From NCBI GenBank assembly GCA_002010065.2, contig MTMD02000008.1:64001-128000 (forward strand): a stretch of DNA of 64,000 bases, read 5' to 3'. A program made the translations under genes and the position numbers. Positions 31 to 30,782 of this stretch are shown piece by piece. The DNA comes from Candidatus Pyrohabitans jungbluthii. GTDB taxonomy: Archaea > Hydrothermarchaeota > Hydrothermarchaeia > Hydrothermarchaeales > BMS3B. The stretch's first letter is position 1; every line of letters begins with the position of its first letter. Under the pieces are notes generated by a model, which worked only from the letters and a program-made list of their open reading frames with translations, had not been told where the DNA came from and ran no database searches.

Positions 31-645
31 TTGGAAATCTATGAGATGACAGAGGAGCAACAGGACGCTTTTAAGGAAATTGGTAACATAGGCGCCGGAC
101 ATGCCTCTACTGCCCTCTCAGAGATGATAAACAAGAGGGTAACAATGGTCGTGCCCAGGGCATACGTAATCCCCATTCAGCGCGTACCAGAGGTTATAGG
201 CGGCTATGAGATTCCAATTGTGGGGATATACCTGAGTGTATTTGGAGACATACCAGGAAAGATACTTATTACCCTACCTGAGGAGACCGCCCATTATCTC
301 GCCTCGGAGCTTTTAGGGGAGGAGAGCTCAGATGGGCTGGTATCTCCTATGGAGCAGTCCGCTCTGGAAGAACTTGGGAATATAATTTCTGGCTCATACC
401 TCTCTGCCCTTGCAGAATTTTTAGGAAAGCGGTTTATTCCCTCTACGCCTAGCATGGCATACGACATGGCAGGTGCAATAGTTGACCTTCTCATTATCGA
501 GCTCGGTCAGAAGGTTGACTACGCAGTGACGATAGAGACTCAGTTTATAATATCCTCGCGAAGTCTCTCCGGACAGTTTTTCTTCCTTCTTGATGCTGAC
601 TCCTACAGAAAAATCCTAGAAAGCATAGGGATGTACCCGAAATGA
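31..645 (+). CDS. cheC: Chemotaxis phosphatase CheC
   Basis: Two D/S-xxxE-x2-N-x22-P motifs (DAFKEIGNIG, SALEELGNII); RBS GAGGTGG before TTG start; operon with cheD, cheR. Confidence 0.93.
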   Translation: MEIYEMTEEQQDAFKEIGNIGAGHASTALSEMINKRVTMVVPRAYVIPIQRVPEVIGGYEIPIVGIYLSVFGDIPGKILITLPEETAHYLASELLGEESSDGLVSPMEQSALEELGNIISGSYLSALAEFLGKRFIPSTPSMAYDMAGAIVDLLIIELGQKVDYAVTIETQFIISSRSLSGQFFFLLDADSYRKILESIGMYPK

Positions 646-1109
646 AGCACAGCGTGGGCATAGGGGAGTACAGGGTAGTTAGGCCGCCTGCGGTACTTGT
701 AAGCTTGGGCTTAGGCTCCTGTGTGGGCGTGGCTCTTTACGACCCGGAGAGGAAGATCGGCGGTCTGGCTCACGTCATGCTCCCATCCAGCAATGGTACT
801 GAGAAAATTACAAACCCTGGGAAGTACGCCGACCAGGCGATAAAGCTGATGCTGGAGGAGATGATTAAACGTGGCGCTTCCAAGAGCAGAATAGTAGCGA
901 AAATCGCCGGCGGAGCGACGATGTTCAAAAACTCCAAAAACTCCATAGGCGAGAGAAACGTTGAAAGTGTTAGAGAAATACTGAAAAAAGAAGGTATAAA
1001 AATAGTAGGTGAAGATACAGGAAAAAATTATGGAAGGAGCGTTGAATTCGATACAGAAACTGGCTTATTACATGTCAGAAGCTTTAAATATGGTGAAACT
1101 GTCCTTTAA
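642..1109 (+). CDS. cheD: Chemoreceptor glutamine deamidase CheD
   Basis: LGLGSCVGV, GGLAHVMLP, GKYAD, KIAGGA, IGERN motifs. Confidence 0.95.
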   Translation: MKHSVGIGEYRVVRPPAVLVSLGLGSCVGVALYDPERKIGGLAHVMLPSSNGTEKITNPGKYADQAIKLMLEEMIKRGASKSRIVAKIAGGATMFKNSKNSIGERNVESVREILKKEGIKIVGEDTGKNYGRSVEFDTETGLLHVRSFKYGETVL

Positions 1110-1126
1110 TCAGGAGATGATTTGGC

Positions 1127-1945
1127 TTGTCCGGACAGAATAGGTTTTTTGAGTATGCTGGCGACTTTAAAAAGCTTCTCGATGAGATATCAAGAAATAC
1201 TGGTCTGAACTTGGTGGGATACCGGGATTCCTATCTCAAGCGCAGAATCGGAGTGAGAATAAAAGCAAATCGCCTCAAGTCCTATGATGAATATATTGAG
1301 TTTCTCAGGAAAAATCCCTCAGAATATGACAAACTCCTTGACAGACTCACAGTAAACGTAACAGAGTTCTTTCGCAATCCCAGCACCTTCGAAGCTTTCA
1401 GGTCAAAGGTGCTACCTGAACTATCCTCCAAGAGGGAGATAAGGATATGGAGTGCCGGATGTGCCTCCGGGGAAGAGCCCTATTCCATCGCCATAACTGT
1501 TTCTGAGTTTTTTGGGAGAGAGCTTGAAAGGCGTTTTATAAGAATATATGCCACAGATATAGATGGTTTGAGCTTAAGAAGGGCTATTAAAGGAGAATAC
1601 GAAGCTAAGAAGGTGGCTAATGTTGATAGTGATATGTTAAATAAGTATTTTATTAAGACTGGTGAGAAATATATGGTTAAACCAGAAATAAAAAGGATGG
1701 TAATCTTTGAGAAGCAGGACATTCTGAAGAGAAGGTGGATTAATTTCTTTGATGTGGTCTTCTGCAGGAATGTAGCCATCTATTTTTCCCGTGATTCCTT
1801 AGAAATTCTCTACGGAAATTTGTACGATTCCCTGCGCAAAGGTGGCTATCTCATTACCGGAAAGGTGGAATCGCTTGCCGGCGATATAAAAAGCCACTTT
1901 GAGGTGGTGGATAACAGAGAGCACATCTACAGAGCCTTAAAGTGA
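1127..1945 (+). CDS. cheR: Chemotaxis methyltransferase CheR
   Basis: TVNVTEFFRN, IWSAGCASGEEPYS, FCRNV motifs. Confidence 0.96.
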   Translation: MSGQNRFFEYAGDFKKLLDEISRNTGLNLVGYRDSYLKRRIGVRIKANRLKSYDEYIEFLRKNPSEYDKLLDRLTVNVTEFFRNPSTFEAFRSKVLPELSSKREIRIWSAGCASGEEPYSIAITVSEFFGRELERRFIRIYATDIDGLSLRRAIKGEYEAKKVANVDSDMLNKYFIKTGEKYMVKPEIKRMVIFEKQDILKRRWINFFDVVFCRNVAIYFSRDSLEILYGNLYDSLRKGGYLITGKVESLAGDIKSHFEVVDNREHIYRALK

Positions 1946-1983
1946 GCCGCTCTTTCCAAGCCGGAGAAAGGAGCATCTACACA

Positions 1984-3297
1984 TTATTTGGCCAGTTCTT
2001 TAAGTATCCTTCTAACCTTTAAAACTATATCCTGTGGATTTTTGCCGAGAAGCCTTATCATAGGTTCCTTCCCCACTGCACCTTCATCATAGATGGCGTC
2101 TGGAAGCTCACCGTGATCCTCTATCGCCTTAAGTGTGCCCCACTCCATGGTACTAACTCCAGGTGGCTCATCATCTCTTGAAAAACTGGCAACCTTAAGT
2201 CCTGTCTCTTCTACCGCCTTTAGCGTCTCAGGGGAATACCTTATGTTTATAGCCGACCTTACGCTTGGGTGTTTGCGTGAAGCTGCGAGCAGAACCCTTG
2301 AGACGTGCTGGGAGGCTGCAAAACCAACGCAACCCGCAATTACAGCTCTACCACCAGCCTTTACTATCCTTCCTCTTATCCCAGCTACATCCTCTGCACC
2401 TTTCGGATTCGGAAGAGAGTAAACAAAGTTTATCCCCACCTCAGGTATCAATCTTTGGAAACCCGGGAGATTCACTACCTCCTCCACAGCCGCTTCTAAA
2501 TCCACAAGCACAGCATGCCTCATCGCTTCCCTTTCTATATTGATGAGCTGATTAAGAATTCGTGCACCCTTTCCTGGAGAATAAGAATACCTTATTGCGT
2601 CTGCAATATATTCCTTAGCCTTCTCTACAGCTTCCTTCAGCTCAAGCCCCTTTGCAAGGTATGCAGTTATAGCTGCGGAATAGGTACACCCAGTCCCATG
2701 ATATCTACCCTTATAGTACTCTGATGAGAACTCGTAAAATTCGCCTTCATGATAGAGTACGTCTACACCCCTGAGATGCCCGCCCTTTACAAGCACAGCC
2801 TTAGTATTTTCTGCAATCCTCAAAGCCGCTTCCCTCGCATCCTCAAGAGAGCGAATTTTTATCCCTGAGAGCACCTCCGCCTCATGTATATTGGGGGTAA
2901 CCAGCGCAGCTTTAGGCAGAAGGTGCTTTTTAAGGGCTTCAACCGCACTGCTCTCCTGCAATTTATCTCCAGATGTGGCCACCATTACAGGGTCAACCAC
3001 AAGGGGGTAATCGCCCACGTTATTAGCCACGAGCTTTATTATTTCCTCTGTGGCGAGCATTCCAGTCTTCGCAGTAGCTATCTCAAAGTCAGCGTGCACA
3101 GCTTCCATTTGCCTTTTAATAAAGCTCTGTGGAAGGTTGTGCACGCCCTCTACGCCCTGTGTATTTTGTGCTGTTACAGAGGTTATTACACTGACCCCAT
3201 GCACCCCAAGAGCGGCGAAGGTTTTGAGGTCTGCCTGAATCCCTGCCCCACCGCCACTATCTGCGCCTGCAATTGTCAGACATGTAACCTTTTTCAT
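1984..3297 (-). CDS. thiDN: Bifunctional HMP/HMP-P kinase - thiamine-phosphate synthase (ThiD-ThiN fusion)
   Basis: LTIAGADSGGGAGIQADLKT, HGTGC; C-terminal LIPEVGIN...GKEPMI ThiN domain. Confidence 0.93.
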   Translation of the reverse strand: MKKVTCLTIAGADSGGGAGIQADLKTFAALGVHGVSVITSVTAQNTQGVEGVHNLPQSFIKRQMEAVHADFEIATAKTGMLATEEIIKLVANNVGDYPLVVDPVMVATSGDKLQESSAVEALKKHLLPKAALVTPNIHEAEVLSGIKIRSLEDAREAALRIAENTKAVLVKGGHLRGVDVLYHEGEFYEFSSEYYKGRYHGTGCTYSAAITAYLAKGLELKEAVEKAKEYIADAIRYSYSPGKGARILNQLINIEREAMRHAVLVDLEAAVEEVVNLPGFQRLIPEVGINFVYSLPNPKGAEDVAGIRGRIVKAGGRAVIAGCVGFAASQHVSRVLLAASRKHPSVRSAINIRYSPETLKAVEETGLKVASFSRDDEPPGVSTMEWGTLKAIEDHGELPDAIYDEGAVGKEPMIRLLGKNPQDIVLKVRRILKELAK

Positions 3298-3448
3298 AAC
3301 TCCACCTCTTAACCTGTTGCATTTTTAATTATTAAAACAATTTTGTAAATTTCAATTTTGTTTTATGGTATAAAAGATTATTGTAAAAGTAGAAAAGTTT
3401 ATATATCATGAAAAATATATAATACAAGGTATAATGAGGTGGTAAGAA

Positions 3449-3979
3449 ATGGAAGAATTGTTTTTACAAAAAAAGCCAAAAGAGATACTATTTTATCTTA
3501 AAAATCAGACCTCTGCAAATATATCGGAAATCGCGGTTAAAACGAACTCTACATATGCACATTCATTTAATTTGGTAAAGGAGCTAGAGGATCTTGGAAT
3601 AATAATAACAAAAAAGAGAGGGAGGTCAAAGGTTGTAACCCTCACAGAAAAAGGTAGAGAACTTGCTACTCTGCTGGAAGAATTCATCGAGGTGTTGAGA
3701 AGCAAGAAAACCACGTCGCGACGCAGAAAGAGGCATGAGTCAGCTAAAAAAACACCTATCAGTGCTTCGGATAGATTGACTAAATACTATGAAAATTTGA
3801 AGAAAATTTCGGAAAACATAAAAAGCGGTGATATCGACTCACAAAAGTCAAAAATTAAGAGGGTTGTTGGAAGATACCGGCAAATTATAAAGAAGATGAG
3901 GCCCAGAGATGAGAAAGGAAGACAGCTCAGGAAAGCTGCACTGATGGAAATAGAATCCATTTTAAAGAATTTGTCGTGA
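3449..3979 (+). CDS. Winged-helix (MarR-like) DNA-binding protein with basic C-terminal extension
   Basis: ISEIAVKTNSTYAHSFNLVKELEDLGII...VTLTEKG wHTH pattern; TATA (TTTATATA ~3398) and RBS GAGGTGG. Confidence 0.75.
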   Translation: MEELFLQKKPKEILFYLKNQTSANISEIAVKTNSTYAHSFNLVKELEDLGIIITKKRGRSKVVTLTEKGRELATLLEEFIEVLRSKKTTSRRRKRHESAKKTPISASDRLTKYYENLKKISENIKSGDIDSQKSKIKRVVGRYRQIIKKMRPRDEKGRQLRKAALMEIESILKNLS

Positions 3980-4027
3980 TTAACATAAGGGAAAGATATA
4001 TATCAGCAATATTTTGAAAATATAACC

Positions 4028-4888
4028 ATGGCCAGAGTGAAAAAGAGAAGCAAAGATGAAAATGTGAAAAAAGTTGCAATATATGTTAGAGTTTCCACTG
4101 AAGACCAAGCAAAAGAAGGTTTCTCGCTAAATGCGCAGCTTGAAAGGCTGCGCAGCTACTGCTCTGCGAGGGGGTGGAAAATTTACAAGGAGTACGTTGA
4201 TGACGGATATTCAGGCAGGTACACCAACAGACCTGCGTATCAGAAGATGCTTGAAGAGATGGACAACTGGGATGTGCTCCTCGTTTTGAAAATGGACAGA
4301 ATTCACAGGAATTCAAGAAATTTCATGGAGATGATGGAACTTCTTAATGAAAACAACAAAGAATTTGTGAGCATGACTGAAAGTCTTGACACCAGCACTG
4401 CAATGGGGCGTTTTGTTATGGACATTATACAGCGCATTGCCCAGCTGGAAAGTGAGCAGATTGGTGAGAGAGTGTACACCGGAATGGAGCAGAAGGCACG
4501 CACACCGGCGGAGCAGCTTGGCCAGGGGAGGCATCCCTACCTAGGGTTTGCCCATCCGTACGGCTACCATTATTCAAATGGAAAGCTCATAGTCAACCCA
4601 AAGGAGGCGAAGTACGTTAGGTTCATCTTTCACGAATATGTAAAGGGAAAGACTCTCGACGAGATATGCAGACAGCTCAATGAGATGGGAGTCCCTACAA
4701 AGAAAGGAGGAAAATGGGCAAAATATACGATTTCAAAGATTTTAAAAAATCCGATTTATGCAGGATATCTCGAATGGAACGGAATTATTAAAAAGAACAA
4801 CCACGAAGCGATAATTGACAAAGAAACATACAATAAAGCACAAAAGATAATTGAGAGTCGAGGGGGTACACCGGTATATATACCCTAG
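4028..4888 (+). CDS. Serine recombinase (catalytic domain + recombinase domain, no zinc ribbon/coiled coil)
   Basis: AIYVRVSTEDQ catalytic Ser, D.G.SG...RP, KMDRIHR, PYGY, ILKNPIYAG, HEAIID motifs; 286 aa. Confidence 0.93.
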   Translation: MARVKKRSKDENVKKVAIYVRVSTEDQAKEGFSLNAQLERLRSYCSARGWKIYKEYVDDGYSGRYTNRPAYQKMLEEMDNWDVLLVLKMDRIHRNSRNFMEMMELLNENNKEFVSMTESLDTSTAMGRFVMDIIQRIAQLESEQIGERVYTGMEQKARTPAEQLGQGRHPYLGFAHPYGYHYSNGKLIVNPKEAKYVRFIFHEYVKGKTLDEICRQLNEMGVPTKKGGKWAKYTISKILKNPIYAGYLEWNGIIKKNNHEAIIDKETYNKAQKIIESRGGTPVYIP

Positions 4889-4900
4889 CTCTTAGTCCCG

Positions 4901-4926
4901 GTAAACAACGGTAGACCGTCGTTTAC
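4901..4926. repeat. 26-bp imperfect palindrome (12+2+12), candidate recombinase crossover site or terminator
   Basis: GTAAACAACGGT-AG-ACCGTCGTTTAC, one mismatch, 12 bp downstream of the recombinase stop codon. Confidence 0.7.
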
Positions 4927-4949
4927 GTATATATAAATAAAACTGTACT

Positions 4950-5310
4950 GCACAAGCCCCGTATTATCCTACGAGTATTTCACCAAGTTTTGAGTGAAGT
5001 TTTAAACCCAGGATATAGGAACTCACAGTTAATGGAATAGAGAAGATCATGTTTCAAATGGTCCGTCATAACCTCAGCACAAATTTCGCAGAGGAATAAC
5101 TTGGCATAAGTTGGCGTCAAAACCTACAGTTTGTAAATTTTGTACTGTGAATCGAGAGACCCTAGTGACTGGCTGCTCTGGAGCGGTCCCGGAAGACCGC
5201 GTGATTTGCCCTGAGAGCGATTTTTTCACATCAGGGAAGGGTAACGTACCCGGAAAACTGCAGCAATTAAAAATTTTCCCTTTTAGGGTCAATATCCAGT
5301 GGCCTCTGTA
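4950..5310. ncRNA. Candidate structured non-coding RNA of unknown family
   Basis: Series of stems (GCGGTC/GACCGC, CCCTGA/TCAGGG, GGGTA/TACCC, GGAAAA/TTTTCC, CTGGA/TCCAG, GACCCTA/TAGGGTC); no credible ORF; TATA-like boxes at ~4929 and ~5316. Confidence 0.35.
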
Positions 5311-5379
5311 GACTGTTTATATATAGTTTTTGTCTTGCTATATAGCAAGTATTGAGGGCGTACTAGCTTGTTGTTAAAG

Positions 5380-5541
5380 AAGGAGCTGCTAGATTCAGTG
5401 CACAGGAAGCCAGATCTGCGATGCCAATAATGGGCAAGTAAAATCCACAGAGATATACCCGTGAAGTATGGGAGTGGGTTGAGAAGAACAGCGGTGAGGA
5501 GAGAGACAACCACAACGTAAGCGCTCTTCCGCAGCCTATCT
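5380..5541 (-). pseudogene. Frameshifted fragment of a UbiA-family DGGGP synthase
   Basis: Colinear identities with 29863..30678: ATCTGCGATGCC (5414 vs 29986), ACGTAAGCGCTC (5515 vs 30086); peptides LLTAVLLNPLPY and FYLPIIGIAD lie in different frames. Confidence 0.8.
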
Positions 5542-5572
5542 CCAATGTCATACGCCTTACACCATCTTTTAT

Positions 5573-5873
5573 TACAATAATGTTTACAAAGTGAAACAAT
5601 TTTTGTAAAAGGTTTCTACCTAATTATATGTTATATAATATATTTTTTACAATATATTTTTAAGCTAAGAACGATGAAATGTTTTACAATAATGTTTGCA
5701 AAATAATGAATATACAGGGAAGAGGTAACAAAAAACTATTGCCTCGGTAAAGATTGGTGATTTAGAAACTCTGCCGGGGTAGCCTAGCCCGGAAAGGCGC
5801 CAGACTCGAGATCTGGTGCTCGCAAGAGCTCAGGGGTTCAAATCCCTTCCCCGGCGCTATAATAATGTTTGCA
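5573..5873 (+). repeat. Three direct repeats TA(C/T)AATAATGTTT(A/G)CA around tRNA-Ser
   Basis: Copies at 5573-5588, 5685-5700, 5858-5873; inverted partial copy at 3377-3388. Confidence 0.7.
5773..5856 (+). tRNA. tRNA-Ser (anticodon CGA)
   Basis: Acceptor GCCGGGG/CCCCGGC, anticodon arm CCAGA-CTCGAGA-TCTGG, long variable arm, GTTCAAATC T-loop; CCA not encoded. Confidence 0.97.
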
Positions 5874-5941
5874 TTATACTCTAGGGTAATGTATGCACCA
5901 CTTTTTTATATTCCCTCACCTCAATAAGTAGCGGTGATTGT

Positions 5942-7744: not shown

Positions 7745-9397
7745 ATGGTAGCACAGCTAGGTGGACAGCCAGTTTTAATACTCTCTGACAAGGCGCAGAG
7801 AACCTATGGCAGAGATGCGCAGCGCAGCAATATACTTGCGGCGCGCATAATCGCCGAGATAGTGAAATCAACGCTGGGTCCAAGAGGAATGGACAAGATG
7901 CTCGTGGACAGCATAGGCGACGTCGTGGTTACCAACGATGGTGTAACCATACTCAAAGAGATGGAGGTCGAGCATCCCGCTGCGAAGATGATGGTCGAAG
8001 TGGCGAAGACGCAGGAGGATGAGGTTGGCGACGGCACTACCACGAGCGTTGTAATTGCCGGCGAGCTTCTCAAAAAGGCTGAGGAGCTTTTAGACCAGGA
8101 TGTTCATCCCACAGTTATCGCCAAGGGCTACCGCATGGCGGCTGAGAAGGCAGAGGAAATCCTGAATAGCATGGCTGTGGATATCGACATAAGCGATGAC
8201 GAACTTTTGAAGAAGGTTGCATCCACGGCGATGACCGGCAAGGGTGCCGAGAAGGCTAAGGATTACCTGGCAGAGCTGGTTGTTAAGGCAGTTAAAGCTG
8301 TTGCCGAAGAGATGAATGGTGAGATAAGCATCGACGCGGACCACATTAAGATTGAGAAGAAGGTCGGCGGAGGAATAGAGGATACCCAGCTGATACAGGG
8401 CGTTATTATCGACAAGGAACGCGTACATCCAGGAATGCCGCGCAAAGTTAAAGATGCCAAGATAGCACTCATAAATGCTCCGATTGAGATTGAGAAGACA
8501 GAGTTCGACGCAGAGATACGCATAACCGATCCGAACCAGCTTCAGGCTTTTCTCGACGAGGAGGAGCGCATGCTCCGCGATATGGTGGAGAAGGTTAAAG
8601 CGAGCGGAGCCAATGTGCTCTTCTGCCAGAAGGGTATAGACGACCTGGCGCAGCACTTCCTTGCCAAAGAGGGGATCTTTGCTGTGCGCAGGGTGAAGAA
8701 GAGCGACATGGAGAAGCTCTCCCGCGCCACAGGGGCGAGGATAGTGACCAGCATAGACGACCTCAGCAGCGACGACCTTGGCTATGCAGGCGTAGTGGAA
8801 GAGGTTAAGATCGGCGACGACGAGATGGTGTTTGTGCGCGAGTGCCGCGATCCTAAGTCGGTGAGCATCCTCATCCGCGGTGGCAGTGAGCACATAACCA
8901 GTGAGGTTGAGCGCGCCATAGAGGACTGCCTTGGCGTTGTGCCGGCTGCGATTAGGGACAAGAAGATAGTGCCCGGCGGAGGCGCGCCAGAGATAGAGGT
9001 GGCGAGCAAGCTGCGCGACTACGCTAAAACTGTAGGCGGGAGAGAGCAGCTCGCAATAGAAGCCTTTGCCGATGCTCTTGAAGTCATACCACGCGCCCTC
9101 GCTGAGAACGCTGGCCTTGACCCAATAGACATGCTGGTCGACCTGCGCTCAAGACATGAGAAGGAAGGGCCAAACTACGGACTCAATGTTTACAAGGGCG
9201 AGGCTGTGGACATGTTAAAGGAGGGCGTGGTTGAGCCTCTCCGCGTCAAAACCCAGGCGATTGCCAGCGCCAGCGAGGTTGCTGTGATGATTCTGCGCAT
9301 CGATGACGTCATCGCTGCCAAGGGGCTGAGCAAAGAAGAGGCAGGCGGAGAAGGCGGAGAGATGGGTGGCATGGGCGGCGGCATGCCCATGATGTAA
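7745..9397 (+). CDS. ths: Thermosome (group II chaperonin) subunit
   Basis: [22 protein letters not shown]-rich C-terminus. Confidence 0.98.
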
Positions 9398-29146: not shown

Positions 29147-29866
29147 ATGAAAAAAATCTTCGGTGAGGCAGCTTGCATAATCGGGGATGCTCTAGTAGTG
29201 GCTGATCTCCACATGGGGGTGGAGAATGAACTACGAAGCCAGGGTTTAAGGGTGCCCTCCCAGAGGGTAAATATGGAAAGAAGGCTGCTTGACCTCATCG
29301 AGAAAACGAATGTCAAGAGGGTTGTGATCCTAGGCGACCTGAAGCACAGTATACCAAAAGCGAGCTGGCAGGAGTACGCCGAGGTTCCGCAGCTTATTCA
29401 TGCTCTTGAAGCTAGGGCAGAGTTGGTTGTGGTGAAGGGGAACCACGACGCCAGCATAGAGAGGCTGCTCCCCTCCACTGAGGTGGTGGACAGCCTTGTG
29501 ATAGGCGACGTGCTGCTGGTGCACGGGCACATGCGTGCGAAGAGCTTGGACTTCACGCGAATAGTGCTGGCACACAATCACCCGGCGGTGGAGTTTGTGG
29601 ACGAGCTTGGTGGAAGGATGCGTGAAAAGGTCTGGCTGGAGCTGGAGTTCAGAGAGGAGGCGCTACTAAAGCTTGGTTTGGAAAGGAGTCCCCGCATAAC
29701 TGTGATGCCCGCCTTTAATGAGCTTATTGAGGGCGTGCCATTTAACAACGTGACTCAGGGTCAAGGACCGCTGCTGAGGGAAGAGCTGGTGGACTTAGGG
29801 GAGGCGAGAGCTTACCTCCTGGACGGCACGGAGCTTGGCAAACTGAAGGAGCTTGCACAACTTTAG
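29147..29866 (+). CDS. Metallophosphoesterase (calcineurin-like)
   Basis: ADLHMG, LGDLKH, KGNHD, HGH, AHNHP, MPAFN. Confidence 0.9.
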   Translation: MKKIFGEAACIIGDALVVADLHMGVENELRSQGLRVPSQRVNMERRLLDLIEKTNVKRVVILGDLKHSIPKASWQEYAEVPQLIHALEARAELVVVKGNHDASIERLLPSTEVVDSLVIGDVLLVHGHMRAKSLDFTRIVLAHNHPAVEFVDELGGRMREKVWLELEFREEALLKLGLERSPRITVMPAFNELIEGVPFNNVTQGQGPLLREELVDLGEARAYLLDGTELGKLKELAQL

Positions 29867-30678
29867 TGCACCGCACCAGCGAGGAAGGAGAGCAGGGCGA
29901 TAAACATCGCCACCTTTATATATCTGGCGCTTTTGGCAGGGTCGCGTTTTTTTAATAGTACTGCGAGAGAGTAGAGGAAGATCGCATCTGCGATGCCCAC
30001 AATAGGTAGGTAGAAGACGCCAAGAATATTCATGTGGTAGGGAAGGGGGCTAAGAAGCACAGCAGCTAGTAGGAACGCAGACGCGACGTAAGCGCTCCTC
30101 CGCGTGCCTATCCTCACCGGTAAGGTTCTACACTCACCCCGGTCGCCTCTCAGGTCTGCGATGTCCTTTACAATTTCTCGGGAGGTGTTGGCAAGCGCTG
30201 CGAGAGCGACGAAGATGAGCGTCGCCTTAGGTTGAGACGTGGCAATGCCGCCATAAAGAAAGGGCGAGGCTACGAGGTAGCTAACTGTAAGGTTCTTGCT
30301 CAGCCCGCCAGCGCGCTTTATTCTCCATGCATACGAGTAGAGTAGCGCAGAGTTGAAGGCTGCCAGGAAGAAAGCAGCAGGGCTTATTAGTAGCGCAAGC
30401 GCAATGCCTGAAGCAAAGAGAAGTAACGCGTAGTTCCTCGCCACCCACCTCTGCAGCGCACCTCGAGGGAGCACCCTGTGAGGGGCGTTTATCTTATCTA
30501 TATCATAATCGTAGTAGTCGTTTATCACATTGCCAGCGCCGCACACCATGAAGGCAATAACGCACGCGAGAGCCACGTCAGCGCTGAAGTTGCCAGAGGC
30601 TATGCTTGCCCCGAGAAACACCGCAAAGGCTGCCATTGCACAGTTCACAGGTCTGAGGATTTCTAGATAGGCGCGCAT
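29863..30678 (-). CDS. Digeranylgeranylglyceryl phosphate synthase (UbiA family)
   Basis: ILRPVN, NDYYDYDIDKINAPHR, REIVKDIAD..GD. Confidence 0.9.
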   Translation of the reverse strand: MRAYLEILRPVNCAMAAFAVFLGASIASGNFSADVALACVIAFMVCGAGNVINDYYDYDIDKINAPHRVLPRGALQRWVARNYALLLFASGIALALLISPAAFFLAAFNSALLYSYAWRIKRAGGLSKNLTVSYLVASPFLYGGIATSQPKATLIFVALAALANTSREIVKDIADLRGDRGECRTLPVRIGTRRSAYVASAFLLAAVLLSPLPYHMNILGVFYLPIVGIADAIFLYSLAVLLKKRDPAKSARYIKVAMFIALLSFLAGAVH

Positions 30679-30782
30679 ACCACATAACACCGCCTTGCAG
30701 AGGTGCTATATAGGTGCAGCCATGAATATAAATCCCTTTCTATAATGGTTATTGGTCGTTAAAGGTGGAAATAAAAACTGAC

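What the first reader, a model, noticed from the sequence alone, without database searches (positions are those of the whole stretch)
3335..5873. Compact wHTH + serine recombinase module with its own candidate site, structured RNA and terminal boxes at tRNA-Ser
Seen: an AT-rich 2.5-kb block between thiDN and tRNA-Ser holds only a wHTH gene and a 286-aa serine recombinase, then a 26-bp palindrome, ~400 nt of hairpin-rich DNA and a host-gene relic, with related TTACAAWAWTGTTT boxes at both ends. Known: large serine integrases need a zinc-ribbon/coiled-coil for att-site pairing and directionality; this protein stops after the recombinase domain and also lacks the HTH of resolvases or IS607 TnpA. 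Inference: a minimal recombination system in which the wHTH protein and/or an RNA supplies the missing specificity function (mini integrative element, or a domesticated resolution system).
Basis: partly seen in the sequence, partly recalled or inferred. Interest (0 to 1): 0.78.

Follow-up and report, generated by a model that had tools for sequence, protein, structure and literature searches.

The report
Chromosomal serine recombinase with own site
An archaeal chromosome carries a short, strongly conserved serine recombinase next to the only copy of its palindromic DNA site, and this pair may untangle joined sister chromosomes, a job so far known only for tyrosine recombinases.

Summary
The genes, the 26-bp palindrome and the AT-rich boxes are at the stated places. 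The 'structured RNA' is not supported: no Rfam hit, fold z -1.7, not conserved in same-genus genomes.

The 286-aa recombinase (catalytic domain plus 'Recombinase' domain, no zinc ribbon) is not truncated. It belongs to a family of about 270-290 aa in Hydrothermarchaeota-like and Thermoplasmata genomes, 52-92% identical. It evolves more slowly than the flanking thiDN and cytochrome b genes.

The palindrome GTAAACAACGG-TAGA-CCGTCGTTTAC (4901-4926) is the key part. A site of the form arm-CGG-N4-CCG-arm lies at the 3' side of the recombinase operon in 18 loci of two phyla. Its arms co-vary. It occurs once per genome in 6 of 6 recombinase-bearing genomes checked, and in 0 of 5 genomes lacking the gene.

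Among 151 Thermoplasmata genomes, 41 have the recombinase only, 91 a XerA-like protein only, 14 both and 5 neither. The gene lies 40-60 kb from a GC-skew turn in 3 genomes.

Best reading (about 0.5): a domesticated single-site system that resolves chromosome dimers, a serine analogue of Xer/dif. The wHTH gene is a lineage-specific companion. A mini integrative element is not supported. No recombination was observed.

The parts
3333..3365 (.). Imperfect dyad AAAACAATTTTG-N7-CAATTTTGTTTT upstream of the wHTH promoter; candidate operator
   Evidence: Inverted repeat I12. Conserved in G002, G003 and the G004 contig end (alignment A2). A perfect 15-nt-arm version occurs in G002. Genus or family specific.
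3373..3388 (.). Inverted copy of the AT-rich box (AAAGATTATTGTAAAA)
   Evidence: 94% complementary to 5682-5697 (I9). Conserved in A2.
3398..3405 (+). TTTATATA, a TATA-box-like sequence about 45 nt before the wHTH start codon
   Evidence: Read from the sequence. Invariant block in A2. The promoter role is inferred.
3449..3979 (+). wHTH gene, 176 aa: winged helix (8-65), long helix, disordered basic linker (88-101), three-helix C-terminal bundle with conserved GRYR...RPR motif
   Evidence: Alignment A3. AlphaFold model, mean pLDDT 83.8. Foldseek top matches are AF1382, pNOB8 AspA and Sso10a-2. Found directly upstream of the recombinase in 9 of 12 loci of the order.
4028..4888 (+). Serine recombinase, 286 aa: catalytic domain plus recombinase (DNA-binding) domain; no zinc ribbon or coiled coil
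   Evidence: Pfam PF00239 at 3.8e-40 and PF07508 at 1.8e-25. Catalytic Arg21, Ser23, Asp90, Arg91 and Arg94 are invariant in 15 homologues (A4). Closest solved structures are the TP901-1 integrase catalytic domain and the A118 recombinase domain. Single copy in the genome.
4901..4926 (.). 26-bp dyad site GTAAACAACGG-TAGA-CCGTCGTTTAC; centre between 4913 and 4914; candidate crossover site
   Evidence: Unique in the 1.99-Mb genome. Conserved in sequence in families f1, f3, f5 and f8. The generalised pattern is found once per locus in 18 loci and only 3 times in the whole genome. One copy in each of 5 further recombinase-bearing genomes, none in 5 genomes lacking the gene.
4942..5572 (.). Variable spacer, not part of the conserved module; holds a relic of a UbiA-type prenyltransferase gene (about 5289-5599, minus strand)
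   Evidence: No similarity to G002 or G003 here. A co-occurring strain about 90% identical diverges after 4935. 5350-5572 is conserved only in G001. Relic. Fold z -1.71. No Rfam hit.
5573..5593 (+). AT-rich box, copy 1 (TACAATAATGTTTACAAAGTG)
   Evidence: Family D1. Local clustering.
5685..5705 (+). AT-rich box, copy 2, 73 nt before the tRNA
   Evidence: Conserved upstream of the tRNA in G003 (A1).
5773..5857 (+). tRNA-Ser(CGA), a conserved neighbour of the module in the window's order
   Evidence: Lies within 1.5 kb of the recombinase in 8 of 12 loci from four families, downstream on the same strand or upstream and divergent.
5858..5878 (+). AT-rich box, copy 3, directly after the tRNA and 69 nt before the cytochrome b start
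   Evidence: Conserved in G001 and G004 (A1).

Best explanation
The wHTH gene, the recombinase gene and the palindrome form a chromosomal, vertically inherited recombination module, not a mobile element.

Proposed mechanism (inferred). The recombinase comes from the large-serine-recombinase lineage but ends after the recombinase domain. A dimer binds the two 13-bp half-sites of the single 26-bp dyad site at the 3' end of its own operon. Because a chromosome has only one site, the only available partner is the same site on a second chromosome copy. When homologous recombination has fused two copies into a dimer or multimer, two dimers synapse the directly repeated sites. They cut at the central AG/CT dinucleotide and exchange strands. 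This returns monomers, as Xer does at dif but with serine chemistry.

The wHTH protein is a lineage-specific companion. It most likely represses the operon at the upstream dyad, and possibly also shapes the DNA. In other lineages its place is taken by a Zn-ribbon plus recombinase-domain partner or by a second recombinase paralogue.

Shown: domain make-up, conservation, uniqueness and co-variation of the site, co-occurrence of gene and site, complementary distribution with XerA in Thermoplasmata, and an origin-distal position.

Inferred: binding of the site by this protein, the crossover point, and dimer resolution itself.
For: 1. The protein is whole and the short form is the norm. The 120 best of 4005 hits in the 'near' length search are 219-335 aa, all with PF00239 and PF07508 only. 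In the 'longer' search the only close relative is one 526-aa protein, 50% identical and without a Zn ribbon. All other long hits are <=41% identical, and most of them carry PF13408.

2. Descent looks vertical and constraint is strong. Identity falls with kinship: 85% in the genus, 75-78% in the family, 63-69% in the order and 52-60% in Thermoplasmata. The locus thiDN | module | tRNA-Ser | cytb is the same in G000, G002 and G003. Against G003, dN is 0.116 for the recombinase, 0.177 for cytb, 0.291 for thiDN and 0.455 for wHTH; dS is saturated. Catalytic residues are invariant.

3. The site is conserved and co-varies.
- A core AACAACGG-N4-CCGTTGTT (<=2 mismatches) occurs in L001-L006, L008, L009 and L011.
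- The pattern 8-nt arm (>=6/8 complementary)-CGG-N4-CCG-arm gives one hit at the 3' side of the operon in 12 of 12 loci of the order and in 6 of the 27 distinct Thermoplasmata loci.
- The same pattern occurs only 3 times in 1.99 Mb of the own genome.
- The arms co-vary: GTAAACAA/TTGTTTAC, GTACGCTT/AAGCGTAC, TTGATATT/AATATCAA.
- In L003-L005 the stop codon lies in the centre of the site, and in L006, L020 and L021 the site lies inside coding sequence. So it is not a terminator.

4. There is one site per genome. The own genome has one, as do 5 of 5 further recombinase-bearing genomes. In 5 of 5 genomes lacking the gene there is no site at <=1 mismatch, and 2-mismatch hits are at the level of the control.

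5. No link to mobile elements was found. No relative turned up in viral contigs. The best phage and plasmid relatives are <=40% identical bacterial integrases.

6. The distribution is complementary to XerA. In 151 Thermoplasmata genomes, 41 have the recombinase only, 91 a XerA-like protein only, 14 both and 5 neither. XerA scores over its curated cut-off in 69 genomes, and only 1 of these (G045, 3.6 Mb) also has the recombinase. G041 and G043 have no XerA-like candidate at all.

7. The position is origin-distal. The gene lies at 0.52 of the chromosome from the main orc1/cdc6 in G092 and at 0.55 in G170. A local apex of cumulative GC skew lies 40-60 kb from the gene in G092, G170 and G113.

8. 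[quoted passage not shown]
Against: - No recombination event was seen. The runs available hold contigs only and show no joint at the centre of the site.
- The XerA complementarity rests on related genomes whose taxonomy was not shown to me. It may reflect as few as one or two replacement events, so the Fisher p of 2e-19 overstates it. Fourteen genomes have both proteins.
- In the window's own order the pattern is not clean. Of 41 genomes, 14 have the recombinase (E<=1e-60), 6 have XerA-like proteins (E<=1e-40), 2 have both and 23 have neither. These include near-complete genomes such as G009 (98%) and G017 (96%). The system is therefore dispensable or replaceable there.
- The own genome also has a 402-aa tyrosine recombinase. 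It scores 87 bits against XerA, whose cut-off is 220, and could do the Xer job.
- The skew apexes are 40-60 kb from the gene, not at it. The G170 profile is noisy. Only +-200 kb was examined, and the three genomes are related.
- GC skew on the window's own contig is uninformative.
- The persistent link to tRNA-Ser(CGA) across four families is not explained by a dif-like role. It hints at an origin as an integrated element.
- A bare crossover site has no obvious means of favouring resolution over fusion.
Confidence: 0.5

Rival explanations
1. It is a relic or minimal form of an integrative element that once entered beside tRNA-Ser(CGA). Alternatively it is a host-kept integrase with an attB-like landing site that serves mobile elements carrying a matching site. 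In either case the recombinase integrates and excises foreign DNA rather than resolving dimers.
For: - The nearest characterised relatives are phage and SCCmec-type large serine integrases: CcrB 166 bits, TP901-1, A118.
- tRNA-Ser(CGA) lies within 1.5 kb of the gene in 8 of 12 loci of four families.
- The DNA just past the site is variable between close strains, with a gene relic in G000 and an IS-like ORF in G002.
- Assemblies of G001 and G004 break inside or at the edge of the module.
- The tRNA is an integration hot spot. G001, G003 and G004 carry a roughly 100-nt scar after it that ends in a duplicate of the tRNA 3' end.
Against: - There is only one full site per genome, and no half-site hybrids flank anything.
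- Both half-sites are conserved together across families, which is unlike attL or attR.
- No close relative was found on viral contigs. The 12 viral contigs that match the site pattern encode no recombinase relative.
- The module is flanked by housekeeping genes, and the recombinase is more constrained than they are.
- In Thermoplasmata the gene sits beside RFC-large or thermosome genes with no tRNA nearby.
Confidence: 0.2
2. The palindrome is only a binding site for regulation, either of the operon's 3' end or of the downstream tRNA or cytochrome b genes, or for chromosome organisation. The recombinase rarely or never exchanges strands there, and any recombination targets lie elsewhere or are lost.
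For: - The site lies at a gene end close to the next promoters.
- No recombination products were seen.
- The wHTH protein resembles centromere-binding and chromatin proteins, AspA and Sso10a.
Against: - All catalytic residues are invariant across two phyla. That is not expected for a mere DNA binder.
- The site has the size and dyad form of a serine-recombinase crossover site (size comparison recalled, not tested).
- The site keeps an AG/CT or similar asymmetric centre in either orientation.
- The site lies inside coding sequence in several loci.
Confidence: 0.12
3. The module performs some other programmed rearrangement with a diverged partner site that my searches missed. Examples would be inversion or deletion that controls nearby genes such as tRNA-Ser or the cytochrome b operon.
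For: - The centre of the site points either way relative to the gene in different genomes: TAGA/TAGT against TCTA/ACTA. This holds even within one genus, L008 against L009.
- The tRNA sits on either side of the module in different families.
Against: - No second site within 7 mismatches of the 26 bp in the own genome.
- No alternative arrangement among the contigs of 4 runs.
- Neighbouring genes differ between families and phyla while the module stays the same.
Confidence: 0.08

Closest known systems
Single-recombinase Xer/dif modules (XerS/difSL, XerH/difH, archaeal XerA/dif)
   Same: - One chromosomal recombinase and one dyad-symmetric site of about 26-31 bp per chromosome.
- The site is genetically linked to the gene. 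XerS is described as 'genetically linked' to difSL, and some archaea have a xerA/dif module (PMC5357621, abstract and passages read).
- Origin-distal position.
- Distribution complementary to XerA.
   Different: - Serine, not tyrosine, chemistry. This would mean a 2-bp staggered double-strand cut and subunit rotation (mechanism recalled) instead of a Holliday junction.
- The proteins are unrelated.
- The function is inferred here, not shown.
Large serine recombinases (phage integrases TP901-1, A118/LI, Bxb1; SCCmec CcrA/CcrB)
   Same: - Catalytic domain plus recombinase domain, in the same order and clearly homologous: TP901-1 E 2e-30, A118 recombinase domain E 5e-6, CcrB 166 bits.
- 36-40% identity to phage integrases over residues 5-282.
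   Different: - The protein stops after the recombinase domain. There is no PF13408 zinc ribbon or coiled coil.
- The site is a short symmetric dyad present once, not an attP/attB pair.
- It is chromosomal and vertically inherited, not on a mobile element.
Small serine resolvases and invertases (gamma-delta/Tn3 resolvase, Sin, Hin/Gin)
   Same: - Homologous catalytic domain.
- A crossover site of about 26-28 bp with 12-13-bp half-sites (sizes recalled).
- A resolution role for circular multimers.
   Different: - The C-terminal DNA-binding part is the roughly 100-aa recombinase domain, not the small HTH. No such Pfam hit appeared.
- No array of accessory sub-sites was recognised next to the site.
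- It would act on a chromosome rather than a plasmid or transposon.
pNOB8 AspA, Sso10a and AF1382-type small archaeal wHTH proteins (for the wHTH gene)
   Same: Winged helix followed by a long helix. Foldseek E 9e-6 to 1e-4, TM-score about 0.8 normalised to the target.
   Different: - It has an extra disordered basic linker and a conserved three-helix C-terminal bundle.
- Sequence matches to named families are all below their cut-offs.

Membership tests
Serine recombinase superfamily | Resolvase-type catalytic domain with the nucleophilic serine and the conserved Arg/Asp/Arg residues | tested here: met
   PF00239 at 137.8 bits, residues 16-158. R21, S23, D90, R91 and R94 are invariant in 15 homologues. 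Which residue plays which role is recalled from gamma-delta resolvase.
Large serine recombinase (serine integrase) | Recombinase domain (PF07508) after the catalytic domain | tested here: met
   PF07508 at 89.5 bits, covering profile positions 1-102 of 102. Aligns to the A118 integrase C-terminal domain in 4kis and 6dnw.
Large serine recombinase (serine integrase) | Zinc-ribbon domain with embedded coiled coil (PF13408); total length about 400-700 aa | tested here: not met
   No PF13408 hit at E<=0.01, and the protein is 286 aa. The 120 best family members have only PF00239 and PF07508. Long forms carrying PF13408 are all <=41% identical.
Large serine recombinase (serine integrase) | Distinct attP and attB sites, with hybrid attL/attR flanking an element and a directionality factor | tested here: not met
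   There is one symmetric site per genome and no second or hybrid site. A directionality factor cannot be tested with these tools.
Small resolvase/invertase | Short C-terminal helix-turn-helix domain; accessory sites or an enhancer | tested here: not met
   No small-HTH Pfam family was hit. The NCBIfam invertase and YneB models score far below their cut-offs. Accessory sites were not searched for systematically.
IS607-type serine transposase | N-terminal MerR-like HTH before the catalytic domain; an element with two ends, often with tnpB | tested here: not met
   The catalytic domain starts at residue 16. NF033518 scores 54.8 bits against a cut-off of 110. The gene is single copy and has no second end.
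Xer/dif-type chromosome dimer resolution (functional class) | Single-copy chromosomal recombinase with one cognate dyad site per chromosome | tested here: met
Xer/dif-type chromosome dimer resolution (functional class) | Site in the replication termination region | tested here: inconclusive
   The gene lies at 0.52 and 0.55 of the chromosome from orc1/cdc6 in G092 and G170. A GC-skew apex lies 40-60 kb away in 3 related genomes. The window's own contig is uninformative.
Xer/dif-type chromosome dimer resolution (functional class) | Tyrosine recombinase of the Xer family | tested here: not met
   It is a serine recombinase. It can only be a functional analogue, not a member.
Xer/dif-type chromosome dimer resolution (functional class) | Resolves chromosome dimers; loss gives segregation defects | not testable with these tools
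   Only indirect support: the complementary distribution with XerA.

The most novel reading that the evidence does not exclude
This would be the first serine-recombinase chromosome dimer resolution system. A truncated large serine recombinase with a single dif-like dyad site beside its gene would have taken over the role of XerA in whole lineages of Thermoplasmata and Hydrothermarchaeota-like archaea. Different lineages would use interchangeable small partners: a wHTH protein, a Zn-ribbon plus recombinase-domain paralogue, or a second catalytic paralogue.
Probability: 0.45. Interest if true: 0.9.

Novelty: new variant of a known kind. Interest (0 to 1): 0.8.

Why it matters
Every chromosome dimer resolution system described so far uses tyrosine recombinases. 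A 2022 review states that no case of chromosome segregation by a serine resolvase is known (PMC8987985, passage read). A 2021 review says archaeal serine recombinases 'were never fully investigated' (PMC8371274, passage read).

If this family does the job, three things follow:
- It answers how the many Thermoplasmata genomes without XerA resolve dimers.
- It shows a second, independent recruitment of a mobile-element enzyme for chromosome maintenance.
- It offers a very small recombinase (about 270-290 aa) with a short 26-bp site, possibly thermostable, which could be useful as a genetic tool.

Even if the dimer idea is wrong, a recombinase-and-site pair conserved across two phyla and more constrained than neighbouring housekeeping genes needs an explanation. 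The claim can be tested directly with two purified proteins and a plasmid.

Tried and rejected
- **Truncated gene.** I checked whether a zinc-ribbon part decays downstream. No recombinase-like coding remnant lies in 4889-5770; the partner-gene proteins of L006 and L012 match only the recombinase gene itself. Family lengths also argue against truncation.
- **Structured RNA.** Rejected.
- **Empty site in relatives.** Not obtained.
  - G001's contig ends at about window 5270.
  - G004's thiDN contig ends exactly at the wHTH start. Its cytochrome b is preceded by katG plus a 17-nt copy of the tRNA end, and its tRNA-Ser lies after cbf5 on another contig.
  - The recombinase was not found in G001 (82% complete) or G004 (93%) with this query. 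This shows neither absence nor an empty site.
- **Reads.** No RNA holder was listed. All 4 runs laid are contigs. They show no joint at the centre of the palindrome, and rare variants cannot be seen in contigs.
- **Complex prediction, recombinase with wHTH.** No verdict: score 0.00 against a mark of 0.32. It is not used as evidence either way.
- **Site pattern in viral contigs.** 12 loci matched; none encodes a recombinase relative, and the flanks differ. I treat them as chance matches.
- **GC skew of the window's contig C8.** Noisy and uninformative.
- **Chromosome fractions.** The values for G150, G107 and G100 (0.59, 0.39/0.61 and 0.30) use rounded genome sizes and unverified contig lengths. 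G113's C1 is only 1.06 of about 1.4 Mb. I rely only on G092 and G170.
- **XerA anticorrelation in the window's own order.** Not seen.
- **Site in other loci.** In the tandem-paralogue Methanomassiliicoccales loci (L033-L041) and in several soil Thermoplasmata loci, no CGG-N4-CCG site was found. Other palindromes occur there, and I did not resolve them.
- **Quality filter.** min_completeness=90 was requested. No quality figures were returned, so I cannot confirm the filter was applied.
- **Literature.** Searches found no paper proposing a serine recombinase for chromosome dimer resolution, or describing this family. Only listings, abstracts and the cited passages were read. Supplements are closed and were not seen.

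Full report
**What is there.** The window is G000:C8:64001-128000 of a 1.99-Mb, 15-contig archaeal genome. Its closest named relatives are MAGs labelled Candidatus Hydrothermarchaeota or Methanobacteriota.

Between thiDN (1984-3297, minus strand) and tRNA-Ser(CGA) (5773-5857) lie two genes on the plus strand:
- a 176-aa winged-helix gene at 3449-3979;
- a 286-aa serine recombinase at 4028-4888.

The recombinase has a Resolvase catalytic domain (PF00239, residues 16-158) and a complete Recombinase domain (PF07508, residues 191-278), and nothing else at E<=0.01. Thirteen bases after its stop codon lies the palindrome GTAAACAACGG-TAGA-CCGTCGTTTAC at 4901-4926.

Three direct copies of an AT-rich box (AYAATAATGTTTRCA) lie at 5574, 5686 and 5859. 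Only one other copy at <=1 mismatch exists in the whole genome. An inverted relative lies at 3373-3388.

- *Structured RNA.* The stretch 4889-5772 has no Rfam match. The piece folded, 4889-5330, is barely better than shuffles (z -1.71; 5 of 100 shuffles fold as well). The stretch 4942-5572 has no counterpart in the same-genus genomes G002 and G003, where the spacer is shorter or holds an IS-like ORF. In metagenome contigs a strain about 90% identical also diverges right after 4935. This spacer holds a relic of a UbiA-type prenyltransferase gene. It is filler, not part of the module.
- *Terminal boxes.* They belong to a promoter region conserved within the genus: a dyad AAAACAATTTTG-N7-CAAAATTGTTTT in the genus consensus, then the box, then TTTATATA (alignment A2). 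Other families lack them. I read them as operator and promoter sequence, not element ends.
- *Missing DNA-binding function.* The protein does not lack a DNA-binding part. Its C-terminal domain aligns to the recombinase domain of the A118 integrase structures.

**The recombinase is a family, not a truncation.**
- The 'near' length search gave 4005 hits. The 120 best are 219-335 aa, 60-92% identical, and all have the same two Pfam domains.
- Among proteins of 502-2000 aa, the only close relative is one 526-aa protein, 50% identical and without a zinc ribbon. It is probably a fusion of two tandem copies. All others are <=41% identical, and most of them carry PF13408.
- In 41 related genomes, identity falls stepwise: 85% in the genus, 75-78% in the family, 63-69% in the order. 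In Thermoplasmata it is 52-60%.
- The gene is single copy in the own genome.
- Against G003, dN is 0.116 for the recombinase, 0.177 for cytochrome b, 0.291 for thiDN and 0.455 for the wHTH gene; dS is saturated. So the gene is more constrained than its housekeeping neighbours.
- The catalytic residues and the whole helix-E region are invariant in 15 homologues from two phyla (A4).
- No relative was found in viral contigs by the peptide-pattern scan, which reaches close relatives only. The best phage and plasmid matches are bacterial integrases at <=40% identity.

**The palindrome is the conserved partner of the gene.**
- In the 12 loci from the window's order, the same sequence recurs just after, or overlapping, the end of the operon. 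It reads GTAAACAACGG-TAGT-CCGTTGTTTAC in L002-L005. In L003-L005 the TAG stop codon is the centre of the palindrome.
- It reads GTGAACAACGG-TAGT/TCTA-CCGAYGTTCAC in L008 and L009. L007 has a degenerate form.
- L006 and L011 have ATCAACGACGG-TGGA/TCTA-CCGTCGTTAAG. L010 has a variant.
- I then used a purely structural pattern: 8-nt arms with at least 6 of 8 complementary, around CGG-N4-CCG. It finds one site at the 3' side of the operon in all 12 of these loci. It also finds one in 6 of the 27 distinct Thermoplasmata loci, with one extra GC-rich hit in L045.
- In those loci the arms have changed on both sides together: GTACGCTT/AAGCGTAC, TTGATATT/AATATCAA, TTTACATT/AACGTAAA.
- The same pattern occurs only 3 times in the whole 1.99-Mb genome.
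- The four central bases are TAGA, TAGT, TGGA, TTCA or TTTA, or their complements. The centre points either way relative to the gene, even within one genus (L008 against L009).
- A site inside coding sequence (L006, L020, L021) cannot be a terminator. Sequence-level conservation with symmetric co-variation is what a dimer-bound site that evolves with its protein would show.
- The full site is unique in the own genome: no second place within 7 mismatches of the 26 bases.
- Five further recombinase-bearing genomes each have exactly one site. Five genomes without the gene have none beyond control level.

**Companions.**
- A profile of the wHTH protein finds it directly upstream of the recombinase in 9 of the 12 loci of the order. 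It finds none in L007-L009 or in any Thermoplasmata locus.
- Its model (mean pLDDT 83.8) is a winged helix with a long helix, a disordered basic linker and a three-helix bundle. The closest solved folds are AF1382, the pNOB8 centromere-binding protein AspA, and Sso10a-2.
- In 16 loci the recombinase is followed by a gene of about 242 aa. It has a CxxC...CxxC N-terminus and a Recombinase domain but no catalytic domain. That gene is broken in L011.
- The Methanomassiliicoccales loci have two tandem full-length paralogues of 256 and 288 aa.
- The window's clade has lost the partner gene. So the wHTH protein cannot be a general requirement of this recombinase family.

**Function.** A recombinase with one site per chromosome can only pair that site with a copy on another chromosome molecule. 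That is the logic of dif. Three further observations fit this.

1. *Linkage and uniqueness.* Gene and site are adjacent, as in XerS/difSL (PMC5357621).

2. *Distribution against XerA.* I compared, tabulated, for a sample of 151 Thermoplasmata genomes.

| | XerA-like (NF040815, E<=1e-40) | no XerA-like |
|---|---|---|
| recombinase (E<=1e-60) | 14 | 41 |
| no recombinase | 91 | 5 |

   XerA scores above its curated cut-off in 69 genomes, and only one of these (G045, 3.6 Mb) also has the recombinase. One unpublished genome, G119, is among the XerA-only group. These genomes are related and their taxonomy was not shown, so the number of independent replacements is unknown. It could be as low as one or two, and the nominal p-value is not meaningful.

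3. *Position.* In the two genomes whose single contig equals the genome size, the gene lies at 0.52 of the chromosome (G092, 1,666,795 bp) and 0.55 (G170, 1,931,651 bp) from the best orc1/cdc6 gene. Within +-200 kb, the cumulative GC skew has its apex 55-60 kb from the gene in G092 and 40-50 kb in both G170 and G113. The G170 curve is noisy and the three genomes are related.

**What argues against.**
- In the window's own order the pattern is not clean: 14 of 41 genomes have the recombinase, 6 have XerA-like proteins at E<=1e-40, 2 have both (G012, G022) and 23 have neither. Several of these are near-complete genomes.
- The own genome has one 402-aa tyrosine recombinase with a C-terminal zinc ribbon. 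It scores 87 bits against the XerA model, far below the cut-off of 220, but it could still serve.
- No recombination product was observed.
- tRNA-Ser(CGA) stays next to the module in 8 of 12 loci from four families, on either side. A dif-like role does not explain this. It suggests the module began as an element integrated beside that tRNA.
- The tRNA is an integration hot spot in any case. G001, G003 and G004 carry a roughly 100-nt insert after it that ends in a duplicate of the tRNA's 3' end. The window lacks this insert (A1).

**Verdict.** The RNA is not. The module is best read as a domesticated, single-site serine recombination system, with dimer or multimer resolution as its most likely job (about 0.5). 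The rivals are an integration platform or element relic (0.2), binding without exchange (0.12) and another programmed rearrangement (0.08).

A 2022 review states that no serine resolvase is known to act in chromosome segregation (PMC8987985). My six literature searches found no description of this family. I therefore rate it a new variant of a known kind, of high interest, and directly testable in vitro.

Noticed in passing
L066 (G001), L002 (G003), L065 (G004), aligned to window 5857-5860 (alignment A1): Directly after tRNA-Ser(CGA), three same-genus genomes carry an insert of about 100 nt. It ends in a 13-17-nt duplicate of the tRNA 3' end, which looks like the scar of an old integration. 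The window has the tRNA end joined straight to the AT-rich box, as if the scar were never there or had been precisely removed.
   Followed up: partly
G004: L065 1-2671, L068, L073: In G004 cytochrome b is preceded by a 730-aa catalase-peroxidase gene plus a 17-nt copy of the tRNA-Ser end. The full tRNA-Ser lies after L14e and cbf5 on another contig. The thiDN contig stops exactly at the wHTH start. The locus is rearranged or variable in that population.
   Followed up: partly
window 5289-5599 (minus strand): A relic of a UbiA-type prenyltransferase gene, similar to the C-terminal part of the intact ORF at window 29863-30690(-). It is conserved at 93-96% in G001 only.
   Followed up: partly
G000:C6:72522-76016 (L013, ORF 1243-2451 minus strand): The genome's only tyrosine recombinase: 402 aa, weakly XerA-like (87 bits against a cut-off of 220), with a C-terminal RanBP-type zinc ribbon. 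It lies between a thermonuclease-like gene and a thymidylate-kinase-like gene (names judged by eye from the translations). Similar proteins of about 400 aa occur in one to several copies in related genomes.
   Followed up: partly
L006 2340-3170, L012 2318-2980, L024 4854-5594 and 13 further loci: A partner gene family of about 242 aa: an N-terminal CxxC...CxxC motif, a conserved 'FLRFASPKEMI'-like motif, and a Recombinase domain without a catalytic domain. It always follows the recombinase directly. It is broken by stop codons in L011.
   Followed up: partly
L033-L041 (e.g. L034 3998-4768 and 4761-5627): Methanomassiliicoccales-type genomes carry two tandem, overlapping serine recombinase paralogues of 256 and 288 aa after the thermosome gene. 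This is reminiscent of XerC/XerD or CcrA/CcrB pairs. Their site was not identified.
   Followed up: no
L003 / L016 (G002), between the site and tRNA-Ser: An ORF of 143 aa on the opposite strand with a transposase-like 'DNGGQF' motif (judged by eye, not tested). It is inserted in the variable spacer downstream of the palindrome.
   Followed up: no
L007-L009, upstream of the recombinase: Family f8 lacks the wHTH gene. It has a conserved 112-115-aa ORF ('MEFEEFWE...') on the opposite strand between tRNA-Ser and the recombinase. Its function is unknown.
   Followed up: no
L025, L027, L031, L032, about 150-160 nt after the partner gene: Soil Thermoplasmata loci that lack the CGG-N4-CCG site share another palindrome, CATAGTACTATGTG..CACATAGTACTATG. 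It may be their version of the site.
   Followed up: no
window 31-1945: The window starts with three ORFs on the plus strand (31-645, 642-1109, 1127-1945) that I took by eye for chemotaxis genes cheC, cheD and cheR. They were not checked with any tool. The ORF at 7745-9397 likewise looks like a thermosome subunit by eye.
   Followed up: no
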